64,000 nucleotides of DNA from NCBI GenBank assembly GCA_000165345.1, contig CM000431.1, positions 928,001 to 992,000 of the forward strand, written 5' to 3'. The translations under genes were made by a program, and so were the position numbers. Below are positions 3,082 to 10,991 of the stretch, in pieces. Positions within the stretch are counted from its first letter, which is position 1, and every line of letters begins with the position of its first letter. The notes beneath the pieces are model-generated. The model did not search any database and had not been told where the DNA came from. It saw nothing but the letters and a program-made list of their open reading frames with translations.

Positions 3082-3638
3082 TTGAGAAAAACTACTATGA
3101 ATGAAAGTATTGGAGAATTAACAACAATTCCGATCATATATTCGAAACAACACAAAGAAAGACTAGTTCTACTTGAATTCCAGGGATCTTTAAGTATATC
3201 TAAATTGAATACAGAAACTGGGGAAATGATTAATTCTGAAAACAATGACGATTTTAATGACACAGTTATTGGTCAATTGATTAACTTTGATAAAATCTCT
3301 CAAAGTTTAAATAATCCTGAAATTGTCAATCCATTAGAATCTGCAATTCAATATTCTAAAAACAACCCAATAGAACTTAAGGTGGGATACCACAAACTTA
3401 TTGGCAAAGTAAGTTAAATTTTTCTTTTCATTAATAAAAATACTCATAATTTATTACCTCTAATTTTTCTACTACCAATAATATTAAAATATCATTCTAG
3501 TTAGTGAAACTAGAAAAACCTTTAGCCGTCATTCAAAATTCCTCAGAAACACAAGAAAAAGATAAAAGTCACTTAAATATATATGATATTATTCATTTTA
3601 AACTAGTTTTTGAATCTAGACCTTTATTTTCTTCTTAA
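3082..3638 (+). CDS. CTF8: Ctf8-like protein (chromosome transmission fidelity 8, a subunit of the alternative RFC-Ctf18 complex). Two exons: join(3082..3408, 3501..3638).
   Basis: The ORF 3082..3417 ends just after a GTAAGT donor at 3409. A T-rich intron and an AG at 3499-3500 follow. Exon 2 continues in frame as LVKLEKPLAVIQ...FKLVFESRPLFSS to a TAA at 3636-3638. The spliced protein has LLEFQGSL, then YHKLIGK|LVKLEKPLAV, then LVFESRP. Human CHTF8 has the matching LMELQGEI, HHILYGKIIHLEKPFAV and LFKTRPKP (established family knowledge). The human sequence is quoted from memory. Confidence 0.5.
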
Positions 3639-4644: not shown

Positions 4645-7600
4645 TTGGGAATATTTAAGCTGGAAATTAACTTTTTAATAACATTTAATAAAATGAATTC
4701 TCTTGATTTACAAGTTAATGGAATGACATGTACGTCATGTGCTACTACAATAAAAAACTTATTATTACATTACAAATTTGTAAAAGATGTTGAAATAAAT
4801 ATCATTTTAAATAGTGTACGTGTAATATTGAATAAGAAAATCACACTTGATGAAAGAAAAAAGATTTGTGACACAATTAACAATGCAGGATTTATTTGTT
4901 TATTAAAGTCAAGTACAATAATGAATGACATGTTAACTTTAAGTATTGATGACCTTAAGTTAGAAGAAAGAAGTTTAGAAAGTGAAATAATTTATGGAAG
5001 TTCAAAAGATATAGCTGAACAAATTTTGAACAGTAAAGGAATAAAGTTTTTAAAATTACATCAAATACCAACAGAAGAGATGAAATTAATAGTAAAAGCA
5101 TTAGAAAATAAAGCTGGAATTATTACTATAATAAGTTATTTGAAGTGGGGACAATTATGCATTTTATTTGATGAAAATCAGATTACTATAACGCAGATAC
5201 AAGAAATTCTAGAGAAATCTGATATTTGGATGCTAAGTTATATGAAATTCTATTGTTTATTTGGTAAGGAAAAGCTTTCATGTGTAAACAATCTTAAAAT
5301 TAAATGTATTTTCCGTTTAAATTCTGATAGAGAAGGTATTAGCATAATACAAAAGATATATAATTGTTTAAGACGAAGAAATGCAAATATTGAGTTCAAT
5401 AAAGATTTTACAGCAAGTATTGGTTGTATTGTAAGTGGAATCTTTGGGATTTACAATGTATCCGTTGAAAGAATGAATGAAAATAATTTGGAGAGAAATC
5501 TTGTTCTAATGATTTGCATTGATTATAATCCTTACTTTATTTCTGGGAGGAATCTATTAAAATATATGAATGATGAAGTTTTAAAAAACTACGTTAATGA
5601 ACCAATTCTAGATGAACAAATTAATGAAAATAAATTGAGAAAGCAATACTCACATAGGTTAGTGAATTCAATGCAAATTATTACAAAGTGTAATTTGGAT
5701 GAAAGTGTTAATTACTCAAGCCTGCAAAAAATTAAAGATAAGGAGTCTCGATATTATGTTATTTGTTTTACAATTTCTTTAATTTTAACTATTATGGTAC
5801 TATTATATAATTTCTTGGGTGATAAACCCTTTATGTCCAAGTTTACAAGAATTATCTCTTTTAATACAATCAAATCTTTGCAAGATCAAACAGGATTATC
5901 TGGTATTAGTTGGAAATATTTGATAAATTTAATATTAGTCACAGTAGTGGTATATTTATGTGGATATACATTTCATAAGAAAGGAATCAAAAGTATGCTA
6001 TATTTGAATCCAAATATGTATAGCTTAATTTCACTTGGAACAAATACATGCTATTTGTATTCACTTTATATGATGATTTATATAGCAATAATATCTTCAA
6101 AAGGTCCTGAAAATACAAAAATATATTCAGATAAGTTACCCAATTTTTTTGATATTGCTTGTATGCTTATCACAATAAGCTTATTTGGAAGAATTTTGGA
6201 TGTACATTCAAATCTACTGATATTAAGAATTATTAATAATAATAGTAATAAAAATGAAGTTGGTGAAAATGGAGATTCCATGAGGTATAATATAAAAGAT
6301 AATTTTCAATTACTTGGTGAAACTAAATTTGAATCACTTGAAAAAGTTTATTATCATTTTTCAAACTCTGAGAATTGTCAGGTATTACCTTTAGCATCTC
6401 CAAAAGATTTAAAGAAAAATAAGGAATTCCGATCAAAATATAAAAATACAGAAATTGGACAAAAAATGAATACTATGAGCATAGACTCAATTTGTTTGGA
6501 TGATATTTCACCTCAATCTATGGAAATGAAGGAACAGAGCTCAATTATTAATAATATAGTAAATGTTGATTTAATAGATTTGGGGGATGTTATTATTTTA
6601 AAAAAGGATGAAATTGTACCATATGATGGAATTGTTATTTCTAATGATATCGCAGTTTTGGATGAATCAATGATTACTGGTGAAAGCAGAATCATTGAAA
6701 AATTATATGGAAATTTTATATCCAGTGGAAGTAGAGTATTATCTGATAATGTATTCATATTTGTTACTGAAGTAGGAACTGAAAGTACTCTTGGAAAGAT
6801 TCAAAAGTTAAAAATAAAAGCAAGAGAGAGTCAAATAGAGTTACCTGGAATTATTGATATATTTTCCAGATATTTTGTACCTTCAATCATATTATTATCT
6901 TTATTGGCTTTTGTTGTTTGGTTCTTATTAGCTTATTATGACAAAGTGGATCCAGCTAGAATGTTTAATATTGACAGAATAAACTTTAATACAGAATTTG
7001 ATAATATATTTAAAGAATTTCCAATTTCATCCAGAGTTATGTTTGCACTGCATTTCTCACTTTCAATATTGGCAATATCTTGCCCATGTGTTATTGGTAT
7101 TACAGTTCCTATTGCTGTACTTATTTCAACTTCTTTAACTTCAAAAAAGAATATATTGGTACAAAACACAAATATTTTCAATAATATAGGATTTATTGAT
7201 AATATAGTTTTTGATAAAACTGGTACTTTGACAAATGGAAGACCAACTGTCAAATCTATTATTATTGATCATGAACATATTCAAGAAATAATAAGTACTA
7301 CATTTAATAATGGTTACAGTTCAAAATGGGAAAAGTCGACTGATATAGATTTTTCTAATTCTTCTATTGAAACATTTTATATTAATAAGAATTCTAATAT
7401 TCAAGAAAAAAATATTGTTTTTGAAGAATTATTCGAATCTTATTTAAAGTTTTGGTGGATTATTGGATCTTGTGAATATTATAATAATCATCCAGCTGGA
7501 AATGTATTAAGATCTTTCTCAATTCGTCTATTTAATAATAAAGAACAATATAAGTTTACTCAACCTATTGATTGTAAATATATTCCAGGAGTAGGAATGA

Positions 7601-8797
7601 CTTGTATTATTAATAGCATGAAAGTTTTAATTACAAATCAATATAAGCATCTTGATCAAGATTTCAGTTTAGTTTCAGTCAATTCTAAAGATTATAATCA
7701 TTATCTAAAGAGTCCATCTAATACTTTAGAAATTTCTTTAGATAGTCCTGAAAATAAGAGTACAGAATATTCATCATTATATTTGCAGAATTGGCTTAAA
7801 TATTGGTCTAAAAAAGGATCAATGATTATTTACATTTTTATTGGTGATATAAATAACTTCAGTGATAATGAACATGGATTAATTAATGCCAAAAATATGA
7901 AATTAGTTGGTGCAGTTTCTATGATTGATGAACCAATGTTTGGAGTAGAGTCTACAATTAATTATATGAAAAAATATGTAACAGATCAAATATGGTTGTG
8001 CTCTGGTGATTCTTTTTATACATCAAATTCAATTGCGTCAATGGTAAGTTTATTAAAAGAAAAATTCAATAATTTTTGAATAACTTAATATATTTTTAAT
8101 TAAAGGTTGGAATAGATTATGATAAAATTATGAGTAATTCAACTCCTAATGATAAGCTTCATCTTATTCAAGATCTTCAATTAAATAAGGAATTAGATAA
8201 GATATCTAATATTGACTTAAATGAAGAAAAAACAGATAAAGAGTTCTTCAAATCTTTTGATTTAGAATTTCCTGAAAAGAATGAAGAAAATATAAAGAAA
8301 AAACAAAAAAAATCCAAAAAAAATCTAAAAAAAGTAATGATGATTGGAGATGGAATAAATGATTCAGCTTCAATAGAAGCTGCTGACATTGGAATATTAT
8401 TAGGAAAAGGCGGGATAAATAATTTTACGCATGCAGATGTAATAATATTGTCAAATTATCAAAATAATATTAAATTCTTATTTAAGCTTGGAAGGTAAGT
8501 TAAAAAGAGTAAATTAGGAAATTTTGAAGATGAGATTTTTGAGTTGTTTTTTTCCTTCTGATTTACTTAATAATTTATTGATTTAATAACTTTATTATTA
8601 TTATTATTAGAGAAGCACATAAAGTAATTAATAGAAATTTAATATGGGCATATATATTCAATGTTTTGACTATTCCAATGGCGGCGGGAATTTTTTATCC
8701 CAATATAATTATTTCTCCCGTTGTTGCAGCATTTTTAATGCTATTAAGTTCAACAATTATTGTATTTTCAAGTTTAATTTTGTATAAATTTAGATAA
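4645..8797 (+). CDS. Heavy-metal (copper-type, P1B) P-type ATPase with three exons: join(4645..8043, 8106..8494, 8611..8797). The real start may be the internal Met at about 4693 (MNSLDLQVNGMTCTSC...).
   Basis: Exon 1 has an N-terminal HMA metal-binding motif GMTCTSCA. It also has the transmembrane CPC motif (SCPCVIGITVPIAV) and the phosphorylation motif DKTGTLT. The exon-1 ORF ends at a GTAAGT donor at 8044 and the acceptor AG is at 8104-8105. Exon 2 encodes the linker to the hinge and then MMIGDGINDSASIEAADIGI, the GDGxND hinge motif. A second GTAAGT follows at 8495 with an acceptor AG at 8609-8610. Exon 3 encodes the last transmembrane helices (NLIWAYIFNVLTIPMAAGIFYP...), ending with TAA at 8795-8797. 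The reading frame is continuous across both splices. Confidence 0.85.
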
Positions 8798-9359
8798 ATA
8801 AAGATAGAATTTTAAGAAGATAATAAAAATAATTTTTGAATAAAAGAGAGAAAAATAAATGAAATATGAATAATGTAAAATACTGCATGCATTATTGAAT
8901 GATTATATATATTTATAAAAAGATTATGTGGGTGCAAATTTCAAAAAAAAAGTTCAAATAAGAAAATTTAAAAGTTAGAGAGTCAGATAATAAAATAAAA
9001 TTAAAATGAATTATCTTTTTCTCTCTTTCTTATTTCATTAAGTTAAACATTATAGAATATTATAAAAGCTATCACTTATAAATGAGAAAATGGAGTTGAT
9101 TAAACAAATTTAAGAAGAAAAGTAAAAATAAATAAAATAACTAGTAATGTAAATGAAATATTTACTTAAATTGTGAATTTATATTATGACTATTAAATCT
9201 AGATATACTATTAAAAAAAAAAAAAAGTTTAGTGAGATTGTTGATCAGTATTTAGATATGTAGGAGGTACCTAATCTATATAGAAGATTATGAACCTATA
9301 ATATTACTTAAAAAACATAGGGAAAAGTGTGATTAATAAGTAAATAGACAATTGTTCTG

Positions 9360-9803
9360 TTAATCATTATTATTATTATCAGGCTTTTTCTTTGGGGCGG
9401 GCTTTGGTAAATTGACTCCCAAACATCTGGACATCTTTTGAACCAATATAGGGTTTGGAATAGCCTTTCCAGATTCATAATCATTAACAACACTAGCTTT
9501 TTCGTTAATCATTTGTGCAAGTTGAGCCTGAGTGAGCTTTTTTGCAACTCTAGCTTGTTGTAAAGCTCTAGAAAATTCCCCAGAAACTCTGAAGATACGA
9601 TAGTCACCAGTATCTTCGTCTAATTTGGCAGCATTTTGAGGGATATTTTGTTTAGTTGATGCATTTCTACCTCCAAGAAATTTTTTCTCGGTAATGATTT
9701 CTTCACCTTTTCTTCTTGCTTGATTAAGATCTTGTTCTTTTGATATTCCTTTTGGTCTAGAACCACCTTTTTTCCATACCACTTGATTCCAATCCTGACT
9801 CAT
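9360..9803 (-). CDS. MBF1: Multiprotein bridging factor 1 (MBF1/EDF1), a transcriptional coactivator with a helix-turn-helix domain.
   Basis: 147-aa protein with a conserved MBF1 N-domain and a C-terminal XRE-type HTH (LTQAQLAQMINEKASVVNDYESGKAIPNPILVQKMSRCLGVNL). Confidence 0.85.
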   Translation of the reverse strand: MSQDWNQVVWKKGGSRPKGISKEQDLNQARRKGEEIITEKKFLGGRNASTKQNIPQNAAKLDEDTGDYRIFRVSGEFSRALQQARVAKKLTQAQLAQMINEKASVVNDYESGKAIPNPILVQKMSRCLGVNLPKPAPKKKPDNNNND

Positions 9804-10205: not shown

Positions 10206-10991
10206 ATGTCATTAAATAAACAGAGTTTGAGGTTAAATGAGGCACAGCTAATAGCAGTAAGAGAGACTTTTGATTTAGCAGATGATGATTCAGATGGAAA
10301 GATTAACTTTGATCAGGTAAGTTATTTTTTTTGAAATCGTTGAATAAATATATAAAAAATATAAGATTAATAAAGTATATTACATATAATTTATAAGGAG
10401 TGAATCGATTATTCTGTTTTTTTATTTGACTAAATAATTTTACAGTAATTTTGTATGCTTTATATAAATGATTCATTTCCTAATAATAAATTATTATTAT
10501 TATTTTGAAAATATAATAAATAACTAATTAATTATTTTATTAACTCTGAAATGTTTTAGGCATGTATTCTGTTTAGAGTACTTGGGCAAACAATAACAGA
10601 CCGCGATTTAAAAACAGCATTGTTGGAAGGTTGGCCAGGACTTGATATTCAATCTGATGAAACTAAGGACAAAGGGTTTAAGAAAATAGATACAAGTTCA
10701 TTGGCTCCAATAGAATTTGATGCATTTATTAAAATTTTCAGAGCCAAATATAAGATTCCTTTTGATGAAGATACAATAATTGAAGCTTTTCAAGTTTTTG
10801 ATCCTGAAAATACAGGACTTATGCCAGCAAATTCTTTTGTAAAATTAATGACAACAACAGGAGAACCTGTTCCAGCAAATGATGTTGAAGATTTATTACT
10901 ACTTGCAAATGTTGATAAAGATGGCAAATTTGACTATACTCAATTAGCAAAGAGGCTTGTTGAAGGTCCCAAGAACGTTCGTGTTTTATAA
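10206..10991 (+). CDS. EF-hand calcium-binding protein, calmodulin or myosin-light-chain-like. Two exons: join(10206..10316, 10560..10991).
   Basis: Exon 1 reads MSLNKQSLRLNEAQLIAVRETFDLADDDSDGKINFDQ. It contains a canonical EF-hand loop (DDDSDGKINFDQ) and ends at a GTAAGT donor at 10317. The intron is 243 nt and very AT-rich. The acceptor AG at 10558-10559 joins in frame to the listed ORF 10620..10991 (ACILFRVLGQTITDRDLKTALLEGWPGL...), which has further EF-hand-like loops (DPENTG, DKDGKFDY). Confidence 0.6.

What the first reader, a model, noticed from the sequence alone, without database searches (positions are those of the whole stretch)
8044..8797. The Cu-ATPase C-terminus (GDGxND hinge and last transmembrane helices) is only recovered by splicing two short 3' introns
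The 1144-aa ORF stops before the obligatory GDGxND motif and before the final transmembrane helices. Splicing restores a complete P1B-ATPase. The first intron is GTAAGT at 8044 to AG at 8105. The second is GTAAGT at 8495 to AG at 8610. The frame is preserved across both. Exon 2 also carries a K-rich insertion (KKKQKKSKKNLKK) just before GDGIND. An intronless gene model here would give a truncated, non-functional-looking transporter.
Basis: partly seen in the sequence, partly recalled or inferred. Interest (0 to 1): 0.55.

Follow-up and report, generated by a model that had tools for sequence, protein, structure and literature searches.

The report
Two real introns in Cryptosporidium copper pump gene

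Summary

- **Coordinates.** They are exact. The ORF is 4645..8079 (1144 aa from TTG, 1128 aa from ATG 4693). Intron 1 is GTAAGT 8044 to AG 8105 (62 nt). Intron 2 is GTAAGT 8495 to AG 8610 (116 nt).
- **Spliced product.** Splicing gives a 1308-aa open CDS ending at 8797. It is 100% identical to C. parvum QOY42726.1/WRK31615.1. The unspliced ORF is 100% identical to the older C. parvum Iowa II model XP_001388127.1.
- **Homology across junctions.** Alignments to solved Cu-ATPases (LpCopA, AfCopA, HMA4, ATP7B) run across both junctions without a gap. The TIGR01511 Cu-ATPase score rises from 177 to 230 to 293 bits with 0, 1 and 2 introns removed, and reaches profile position 541 of 542.
- **Conservation.** In eight other Cryptosporidium loci both introns sit at the same codon positions with GT[AG][AT]GT...YAG ends. 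Their lengths take any value mod 3 (54-88 nt and 70-116 nt). Exon 2 changes length only in multiples of 3. Exon 3 is always 187 nt, with dN/dS of 0.02-0.08.
- **What exon 3 encodes.** It carries the last two membrane helices with the Cu-site motifs N-x6-FN-x4-P and M-x2-SS.
- **Transcript evidence.** I could not obtain any for this gene.
- **Residual point.** At least five conflicting public protein models exist for this gene, and most lack the last two helices.

The parts
4693..8043 (+). Exon 1 of the Cu(I) P1B-type ATPase gene (CpATPase2 / 'P-type ATPase 2'), residues 1-1117. It carries the HMA domain with GMTCTSC (res 10-16), helices MA, MB and M1-M4, TGES (662), CPC (797), DKTGT (841) and HP (933).
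   Evidence: ORF listing. Pfam HMA, E1-E2_ATPase and Hydrolase hits. Motif and hydropathy scan. 100% identical to XP_001388127.1 over this part.
8044..8105 (+). Intron 1: 62 nt, phase 0, GTAAGT...TTAAAG, 11% GC, with an in-frame TGA at 8077.
   Evidence: Same position in 8 other Cryptosporidium loci, lengths 54-88 nt with any value mod 3. Nucleotide identity to orthologous introns is 0.48-0.69, well below the neighbouring exons.
8106..8494 (+). Exon 2: 389 nt, residues 1118 to the first two bases of codon 1247. It encodes VGIDYDKIMSNSTPNDK..LQ, the genus-specific insertion, and the GDGIND hinge (8346-8363).
   Evidence: Exon 2 length in 7 other species is 389-416 nt and always 3n+2. dN/dS is 0-0.07 for its last 50 codons wherever it is calculable.
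8184..8321 (+). Genus-specific ~46-residue insertion in the P domain (residues 1144-1189) between ..DLQ and KKVMMIGDGIND.
   Evidence: The HMA4 alignment jumps from query 1143 to 1190. The multiple alignment with ATP7B, bacterial CopA-like proteins and Galdieria HMA5 shows the same gap.
8495..8610 (+). Intron 2: 116 nt, phase 2 (splits codon AG|A, Arg1247), GTAAGT...TTATTAG, 18% GC, with TAA at 8496 when read through.
   Evidence: Same position in 7 other species, 70-104 nt with any value mod 3, donors GTAAGT, GTATGT or GTGAGT. Identity falls to 0.42-0.60 in all species except the closest, C. meleagridis (0.82).
8611..8797 (+). Exon 3: 187 nt including stop TAA 8795-8797, residues 1247 (third base) to 1308. 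It encodes the last two membrane helices M5 (about 1257-1275) and M6 (about 1279-1297), with N-x6-FN-x4-P (8636-8677) and M-x2-SS (8738-8752).
   Evidence: It aligns to LpCopA 3rfu up to residue 731 of 736. It is 187 nt in all 7 other species that have it, with dN/dS 0.02-0.08.

Best explanation
The window is Cryptosporidium parvum (IOWA type). Positions 4693-8797 (+) hold the single-copy copper-transporting P1B-type ATPase gene known as CpATPase2 or 'P-type ATPase 2'. It has three exons separated by two ordinary short spliceosomal introns, 8044-8105 and 8495-8610. Removing intron 1 joins the P-domain segment ...SIASM to VGIDYDK...GDGIND. Removing intron 2 joins ...FKLG(R) to EAHKVINRNL... and adds the last two membrane helices. 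These helices carry the conserved Asn (M5) and Met/Ser-Ser (M6) residues that, together with the CPC motif of M4, form the Cu(I) site of this class of pump. Shown here: exact coordinates, an open spliced frame, identity to a deposited protein, homology across both junctions, and conservation of both introns with purifying selection on exons 2 and 3 across the genus. Inferred: that the introns are actually spliced in vivo (literature statement only) and that the pump exports Cu(I) (by family membership).
For: The spliced CDS is open and gives 1308 aa. It is identical to QOY42726.1/WRK31615.1, and the unspliced ORF is identical to XP_001388127.1 of C. parvum Iowa II. PDB phmmer alignments to ATP7B, HMA4, LpCopA and AfCopA are continuous across both junctions and run to the C-terminus of those chains. 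With 0, 1 and 2 introns removed, NCBIfam TIGR01511 gives 176.8, 229.8 and 293.3 bits and TIGR01525 gives 191.8, 258.7 and 302.9 bits. The two-intron model reaches TIGR01511 profile position 541/542. Pfam Hydrolase is 21.6 bits unspliced (below the 26.4 cut-off) and 46.9 bits spliced. In eight other Cryptosporidium loci the introns occupy the same positions with GT[AG][AT]GT...YAG ends. Lengths are 54-88 nt and 70-116 nt with all residues mod 3, and every spliced CDS is open and ends ...LYK[FY]R*. Intron identity falls towards shuffled background while exons stay at 0.68-0.97. Exon 2 lengths are always 3n+2, and exon 3 is always 187 nt. dN/dS of exon 3 is 0.02-0.08. The flanking genes in the window also have GTAAGT...YAG introns (3409-3500 and 10317-10559). 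Baptista et al. 2022 state that the introns of the IOWA-ATCC annotation are 100% supported by RNA-seq (PMC8744675).
Against: No transcript sequence for this gene was seen. A protein search with the spliced C-terminus found no product from a spliced transcript assembly. Exact searches for both exon-exon junctions in JGI metagenome contigs found nothing. Scores against TIGR01511 and TIGR01525 stay below NCBI's curated cut-offs (397 and 346 bits). This is probably because of the large apicomplexan insertions and the bacterial calibration of those models. The M5 'YN' signature reads 'FN' in every Cryptosporidium species examined.
Confidence: 0.95

Rival explanations
1. The gene really ends at the TGA at 8077, as in the Iowa II RefSeq model. 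The downstream GDGIND and helix-coding pieces are decaying remnants or separate small genes, as annotated in C. ryanae and chipmunk genotype I.
For: Public annotations do this. XP_001388127.1 has 1128 aa. Exon 2 is called as a separate 126-aa or 129-aa protein in two species.
Against: Exons 2 and 3 are under strong purifying selection in the spliced frame (dN/dS 0.02-0.08). They keep constant or 3n-variable lengths across the genus. A stand-alone exon 2 ORF would start at ATG 8130 and cut off the conserved VGIDYDKI. Exon 3 has no in-frame ATG ahead of the conserved EAHKVINRNL. A P-type ATPase without GDGxND and M5/M6 lacks part of its phosphorylation domain and ion site (established knowledge of the family).
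Confidence: 0.02
2. The two interruptions are assembly or sequencing frameshift errors rather than introns.
For: Each interruption changes the reading frame by 2 nt. The first published CpATPase2 record (AAD25542.2) is equivalent to deleting only 23 nt, 8077-8099.
Against: The same interruptions, 54-116 nt long with canonical GT...AG ends, occur in nine independent assemblies of different species. Alignments to other Cu-ATPases show nothing missing or extra at the junctions once the segments are removed. The 23-nt gap in AAD25542.2 has TG...AA ends and leaves 13 residues (VSLLKEKFNNFLK) with no counterpart in other Cu-ATPases.
Confidence: 0.01
3. The introns are real but are partly retained as a regulated event, giving truncated or insertion-bearing isoforms alongside the full pump.
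For: In C. canis, C. bovis and the species in SRR31861040, intron 1 is a multiple of 3 with no stop, so retention would insert 18-24 residues in frame. Baptista et al. report only three putative alternatively spliced genes in C. parvum.
Against: In C. parvum both introns carry in-frame stops. Intron sequences are not conserved at the protein level. No data here speak to isoforms.
Confidence: 0.02

Closest known systems
C. parvum IOWA-ATCC 'p-type ATPase 2', QOY42726.1 / WRK31615.1 (1308 aa), and C. meleagridis KAK9173688.1 (1309 aa)
   Same: The C. meleagridis protein uses the homologous two introns.
   Different: Nothing. This is the same gene and the same model.
CpATPase2 as first published (LaGier, Zhu & Keithly 2001, Gene 266:25; AAD25542.2, 1260 aa) and the Iowa II RefSeq model XP_001388127.1 (1128 aa)
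   Same: Same locus and same protein over exon 1. CpATPase2 is cited as a Cu-ATPase seen at the plasma membrane and on cytoplasmic membranes of sporozoites (PMC3308323).
   Different: AAD25542.2 equals the genome with only 8077-8099 removed (23 nt, TG...AA), has one K-to-Q difference, and stops at ...KLGR, so it lacks exon 3. XP_001388127.1 removes no intron and lacks GDGIND and M5/M6.
P1B-1 copper ATPases with solved structures: L. pneumophila CopA (3rfu), A. fulgidus CopA (3j08/3j09), rice HMA4 (8q73), ATP7B (7si3, 7xuk)
   Same: One N-terminal HMA domain with CxxC, TGES, CPC in M4, DKTGT, HP, GDGIND, N-x6-(Y/F)N-x4-P in M5 and M-x2-SS in M6. Whole-protein E-values are 1e-42 to 9e-56.
   Different: There are large lineage-specific insertions: about 80 extra residues between M2 and the A domain, N-domain insertions, and 46 residues before GDGIND. 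Phe replaces the M5 Tyr of the YN pair in all Cryptosporidium species examined.

Membership tests
P1B-1 (Cu+) P-type ATPase | DKTGT phosphorylation motif and TGE(S) actuator motif | tested here: met
   DKTGT at residue 841 and TGES at 662. Pfam E1-E2_ATPase scores 105.8 bits against a cut-off of 28.1. TIGR01494 (P-type ATPase) scores 160.5 bits against a cut-off of 62.3.
P1B-1 (Cu+) P-type ATPase | GDGxND hinge motif in the P domain | tested here: met
   GDGIND at residue 1198 (8346-8363), present only after intron 1 is removed. Pfam Hydrolase scores 46.9 bits spliced and 21.6 bits unspliced, against a cut-off of 26.4.
P1B-1 (Cu+) P-type ATPase | CPC motif in M4 | tested here: met
   SCPCVIG, with CPC at 797, inside a hydrophobic segment at 792-810.
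P1B-1 (Cu+) P-type ATPase | M5 signature N-x6-YN-x4-P (signature recalled from Arguello 2003, from memory) | tested here: inconclusive
   NLIWAYIFNVLTIP at 1256-1269. Spacing, Asn and Pro are kept, but Tyr is Phe in all 8 Cryptosporidium sequences, while the 4 outgroups and LpCopA, AfCopA and HMA4 have YN.
P1B-1 (Cu+) P-type ATPase | M6 signature M-x2-SS | tested here: met
   MLLSS at 1290-1294, encoded by exon 3 and aligned to the LpCopA M...SS motif. M188, S191 and S192 are invariant in alignment A1.
P1B-1 (Cu+) P-type ATPase | N-terminal heavy-metal-associated domain with CxxC | tested here: met
   Pfam HMA scores 27.1 bits against a cut-off of 24.8, over residues 6-67, with GMTCTSC at 10-16.
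P1B-1 (Cu+) P-type ATPase | Eight membrane helices (MA, MB, M1-M6) | tested here: inconclusive
   A Kyte-Doolittle scan gives seven segments at or above 1.6, at about 356, 409, 486, 728, 792, 1257 and 1279. M1 (about 448-470) falls below the threshold. No dedicated topology predictor or structure model was run.
P1B-1 (Cu+) P-type ATPase | Score above the curated cut-off of the Cu-ATPase subfamily HMM (TIGR01511) | tested here: not met
   293.3 bits against a cut-off of 397, and TIGR01525 gives 302.9 against 346.25. These models are calibrated on bacterial and archaeal proteins, and the query carries several long insertions. The best-scoring families are still the Cu and heavy-metal subfamilies.
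P1B-1 (Cu+) P-type ATPase | Cu(I)-dependent ATPase or transport activity | not testable with these tools
   Only the literature statement that CpATPase2 is a Cu-ATPase (PMC3308323). The primary paper is not held.
Spliceosomal (U2-type GT-AG) intron | GT...AG ends with a donor consensus like the organism's other introns | tested here: met
   Both introns run GTAAGT...AG. The introns of the two neighbouring genes in the window are also GTAAGT...TAG.
Spliceosomal (U2-type GT-AG) intron | Removal restores an open frame and uninterrupted homology | tested here: met
Spliceosomal (U2-type GT-AG) intron | Orthologous position conserved, with sequence and length free of coding constraint | tested here: met
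   Nine species examined. Intron lengths take every value mod 3, and intron identity is near shuffled background in the distant species.
Spliceosomal (U2-type GT-AG) intron | Junction-spanning transcripts | not testable with these tools
   None found in the searchable collections. There is only the general statement in PMC8744675 that all CpIA introns have RNA-seq support.

The most novel reading that the evidence does not exclude
All Cryptosporidium species examined replace the M5 Tyr of the Cu(I)-site 'YN' pair with Phe, and all carry a ~46-55-residue charged insertion next to the GDGxND hinge. These could mean the pump has an altered metal site or a lineage-specific regulatory loop, rather than being a plain CopA/ATP7-like exporter. 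Separately, the in-frame, stop-free intron 1 of C. canis, C. bovis and one unnamed species could allow functional intron retention.
Probability: 0.07. Interest if true: 0.3.

Novelty: already known. Interest (0 to 1): 0.08.

Why it matters
It has little importance as a discovery. The gene has been described since 2001, and the correct three-exon model is already deposited for C. parvum IOWA-ATCC and for C. meleagridis. The practical value is as an annotation warning. The RefSeq Iowa II protein, the original CpATPase2 record and most models in C. hominis, C. tyzzeri, C. canis, C. felis, C. bovis, C. ryanae and chipmunk genotype I are truncated, split or carry read-through intron sequence. Anyone modelling, expressing or targeting this transporter from those records would be working with a pump that lacks its last two membrane helices and part of its copper site.

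Tried and rejected
1. I looked for direct transcript evidence. A protein search with the spliced C-terminal 217 aa returned only exon 2 as a stand-alone ORF from genomic assemblies, and no spliced product.
2. Exact searches for both exon-exon junction sequences in JGI metagenome contigs found nothing.
3. The primary CpATPase2 paper (PMID 11290416) is not held. No supplementary tables of Baptista et al. 2022 are held, so gene-level RNA-seq support could not be checked.
4. An Rfam scan of 7900-9000 at E<=1 found no RNA family in or around the introns.
5. GTAAGT enrichment was rejected as evidence. The hexamer is not over-represented in the window.
6. Alternative acceptors were considered by reading the sequence. 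AG at 8114-8115, 8611-8612 or 8614-8615 would each give an intron length that breaks the frame (from the sequence and the stop map).
7. I chose not to run a structure prediction. The 1308-aa protein exceeds the size limit, and the sequence-level evidence was already decisive.

Full report
**What is in the sequence**

The coordinates in the finding are exact. The mechanical ORF runs 4645..8079 and is 1144 aa from a TTG. From the first ATG at 4693 it is 1128 aa and ends ...SNSIASMVSLLKEKFNNF*. GTAAGT sits at 8044 and an AG ends at 8105, a 62-nt interval. GTAAGT sits at 8495 and an AG ends at 8610, a 116-nt interval.

Joining 4693-8043, 8106-8494 and 8611-8797 gives 3927 nt with no internal stop, encoding 1308 aa. 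Each intron is 3n+2 nt long, so the three exons lie in three different genomic frames. Only the spliced CDS is continuous. The introns are 11% and 18% GC, against about 25% for the exons.

The hexamer GTAAGT is not in itself more frequent than chance. There are 19 on the + strand against about 25 expected, and one lies within exon 1 at 5431. What carries weight is where these two copies lie.

**Identity of the locus**

A search with the spliced protein returned only Cryptosporidium proteins at high identity. The cluster listing showed thirteen models of the same gene. Three comparisons settle the identity:

- The spliced model is 100% identical to C. parvum QOY42726.1/WRK31615.1 (1308 aa).
- The unspliced ATG ORF is 100% identical to C. 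parvum Iowa II XP_001388127.1/EAZ51455.1 (1128 aa).
- A model that removes only intron 1 is identical to KAL5369729.1 (1247 aa).

The window is therefore C. parvum, and the gene is the one published as CpATPase2 (LaGier et al. 2001, cited in PMC3308323). Baptista et al. 2022 produced the IOWA-ATCC annotation, apparently the source of QOY42726.1 (named CPATCC_001398; the paper's gene ids carry the CPATCC prefix). They state that its introns are 100% supported by RNA-seq (PMC8744675). Isaza et al. 2015 report that C. parvum introns have a mean length of about 99 nt and 22% GC (PMC4637869), and these two fit that description.

**Homology across the junctions**

phmmer against PDB chains aligns ...SIASM|VGIDYDKIMSNSTPNDK..LQ to HMA4 ...SIAKEVGIG--TVFAEIDPVGK..LQ. 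It aligns ...FKLGR|EAHKVINRNLIWAYIFNVLTIPMAAG to LpCopA ...[30 protein letters not shown]. There is no gap at either junction, and the alignment runs to residue 731 of 736 in LpCopA.

Family-model scores with 0, 1 and 2 introns removed (cells marked – were not run):

| Model | 0 introns | 1 intron | 2 introns | Curated cut-off |
|---|---|---|---|---|
| TIGR01511 (Cu-ATPase) | 176.8 | 229.8 | 293.3 | 397 |
| TIGR01525 (heavy-metal ATPase) | 191.8 | 258.7 | 302.9 | 346.25 |
| Pfam Hydrolase | 21.6 | – | 46.9 | 26.4 |

The two-intron model reaches TIGR01511 profile position 541 of 542. Pfam Hydrolase is below its cut-off for the unspliced ORF and above it for the spliced protein.

The spliced protein has the following motifs:

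- GMTCTSC at residue 10
- TGES at 662
- CPC at 797
- DKTGT at 841
- HP at 933
- GDGIND at 1198
- N-x6-FN-x4-P at 1256-1269
- M-x2-SS at 1290-1294

The last two hydrophobic segments (about 1257-1275 and 1279-1297) lie wholly in exon 3.

**Comparative test of the introns**

I fetched the orthologous loci of C. meleagridis, C. canis, C. felis, C. bovis, C. ryanae, chipmunk genotype I and two unnamed species from read-archive assemblies. Gene order is conserved: Ctf8-like, a small minus-strand gene, the ATPase, MBF1 on the minus strand, then an EF-hand gene.

- **Position and ends.** In every locus both interruptions are at the same codon positions. Donors are GTAAGT, with GTATGT in C. bovis intron 2 and GTGAGT in C. 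ryanae intron 2. Acceptors are YAG or AAG.
- **Intron lengths.** Intron 1 is 54, 54, 62, 72, 72, 73, 83, 86 or 88 nt. Intron 2 is 70, 78, 83, 92, 95, 99, 104 or 116 nt. All residues mod 3 occur.
- **Exon lengths.** Exon 2 is 389-416 nt and always 3n+2. Exon 3 is 187 nt everywhere.
- **Open frames.** After splicing at the homologous sites every species gives an open frame ending ...LYK[FY]R*.
- **Nucleotide identity to C. parvum.** Exons stay at 0.68-0.97. Introns fall to 0.42-0.64 in the distant species, near the 0.40-0.56 obtained with shuffled introns.
- **Selection.** Nei-Gojobori dN/dS for exon 3 is 0.02-0.08.

This is the pattern expected of real introns between coding exons. It rules out the ideas that exons 2 and 3 are relics, separate genes or products of assembly error. 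The two flanking genes in the window have introns of the same type, at 3409-3500 and 10317-10559, both GTAAGT...TAG.

**The K-rich stretch**

KKKQKKSKKNLKK (residues 1181-1193) is the end of an insertion of about 46 residues (1144-1189) between ..DLQ and KKVMMIGDGIND. Bird ATP7B and two bacterial CopA-like proteins lack the insertion, and Galdieria HMA5 has only a much shorter one at this point. It is present, in frame and variable (about 46-55 residues) in all Cryptosporidium species. An inner block, NKEFFKSFDLE, is partly conserved. It is therefore coding sequence, not a third intron.

**State of the public records**

For essentially the same DNA there are at least five protein models:

| Length | How it is built | Accession(s) |
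|---|---|---|
| 1128 aa | No intron removed | XP_001388127.1 |
| 1247 aa | Intron 1 only | KAL5369729.1; likewise C. meleagridis POM84230.1, C. hominis OLQ18963.1, C. tyzzeri TRY52582.1 |
| 1228 aa | Intron 1 plus a 57-nt in-frame removal of 4730-4786, which deletes the CxxC copper-binding motif | WKS77124.1 |
| 1260 aa | A 23-nt gap 8077-8099 with TG...AA ends, and no exon 3 | AAD25542.2 |
| 1308 aa | Both introns removed | QOY42726.1, WRK31615.1 |

In C. canis, C. bovis and one unnamed species, intron 1 happens to be a multiple of 3 without a stop. The deposited proteins read through it. In C. ryanae and chipmunk genotype I, exon 2 is annotated as a separate small protein.

**What could not be done**

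No transcript evidence for this gene could be reached. No spliced product appeared in the protein collection. Neither exon-exon junction sequence occurs in the JGI metagenome contigs. The primary 2001 paper and the 2022 supplements are not held. An Rfam scan found nothing in the introns.

**Verdict**

The mechanism is ordinary cis-splicing of two short GT-AG introns in a known gene, and the exact model is already public. Novelty is 'already known' and interest is low. One side observation may deserve a specialist's glance: the genus-wide Tyr-to-Phe change in the M5 'YN' pair of the copper site.

Noticed in passing
window 4693-8797 (whole gene): At least five conflicting public protein models exist for this one gene from near-identical DNA: 1128, 1228, 1247, 1260 and 1308 aa. 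Only the 1308-aa model (QOY42726.1/WRK31615.1) contains the last two membrane helices. The RefSeq Iowa II protein XP_001388127.1 is the truncated intronless model.
   Followed up: yes
window 4730-4786: Two public models (WKS77124.1 and C. hominis KAL3129194.1) lack the same 19 residues near the N-terminus. For WKS77124.1 I showed that this equals splicing out a 57-nt in-frame segment (GTACGT...AAAAG). The removal deletes CTSCATTIKNLLLHYKFVKD, including the CxxC copper-binding motif of the HMA domain. The Pfam HMA match is continuous over residues 6-67 when the segment is kept, so this 'intron' looks spurious.
   Followed up: partly
window 8654-8659 (residues 1262-1263, FN): The conserved M5 'YN' pair of Cu(I) P1B-1 ATPases reads 'FN' in all eight Cryptosporidium sequences examined. 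LpCopA, AfCopA, HMA4, bird ATP7B, Galdieria HMA5 and two bacterial homologues all have YN.
   Followed up: partly
window 8184-8321: There is a genus-specific charged insertion of ~46 residues in the P domain just before GDGIND. It is 46-55 residues in other species and always changes length in multiples of 3. A further ~80 extra residues lie between M2 and the A domain (about residues 505-612) relative to rice HMA4.
   Followed up: partly
window 3097-3638 (+) and 10206-10991 (+): Both plus-strand neighbours also carry one GTAAGT...TAG intron each. The Ctf8-like gene has its intron at 3409-3500 (92 nt). The EF-hand protein gene has its intron at 10317-10559 (243 nt). Three intron-containing genes therefore sit within 8 kb, in a genome where about 90% of genes are reported to be intronless.
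   Followed up: partly
window 9360-9803 (-): An MBF1 (multiprotein bridging factor 1) homologue of 147 aa lies immediately downstream on the opposite strand. It is syntenic in all the Cryptosporidium loci fetched that extend that far downstream.
   Followed up: no
L002 5849-5902, L004 5912-5983, L008 5007-5078: In C. canis, C. bovis and an unnamed species (SRR31861040), intron 1 is 54 or 72 nt with no in-frame stop. Deposited and predicted proteins read straight through it, adding 18-24 spurious residues after ...ASM (VSFRKSNY..., VSFISSIK..., VSFNASSA...).
   Followed up: yes
L005 5973-6362, L006 5930-6310: In C. ryanae and chipmunk genotype I, exon 2 of the ATPase is annotated as an independent small protein (129 aa 'P-type ATPase 2' and 126 aa 'E1-E2 ATPase family'). 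Exon 3 is not annotated at all.
   Followed up: yes
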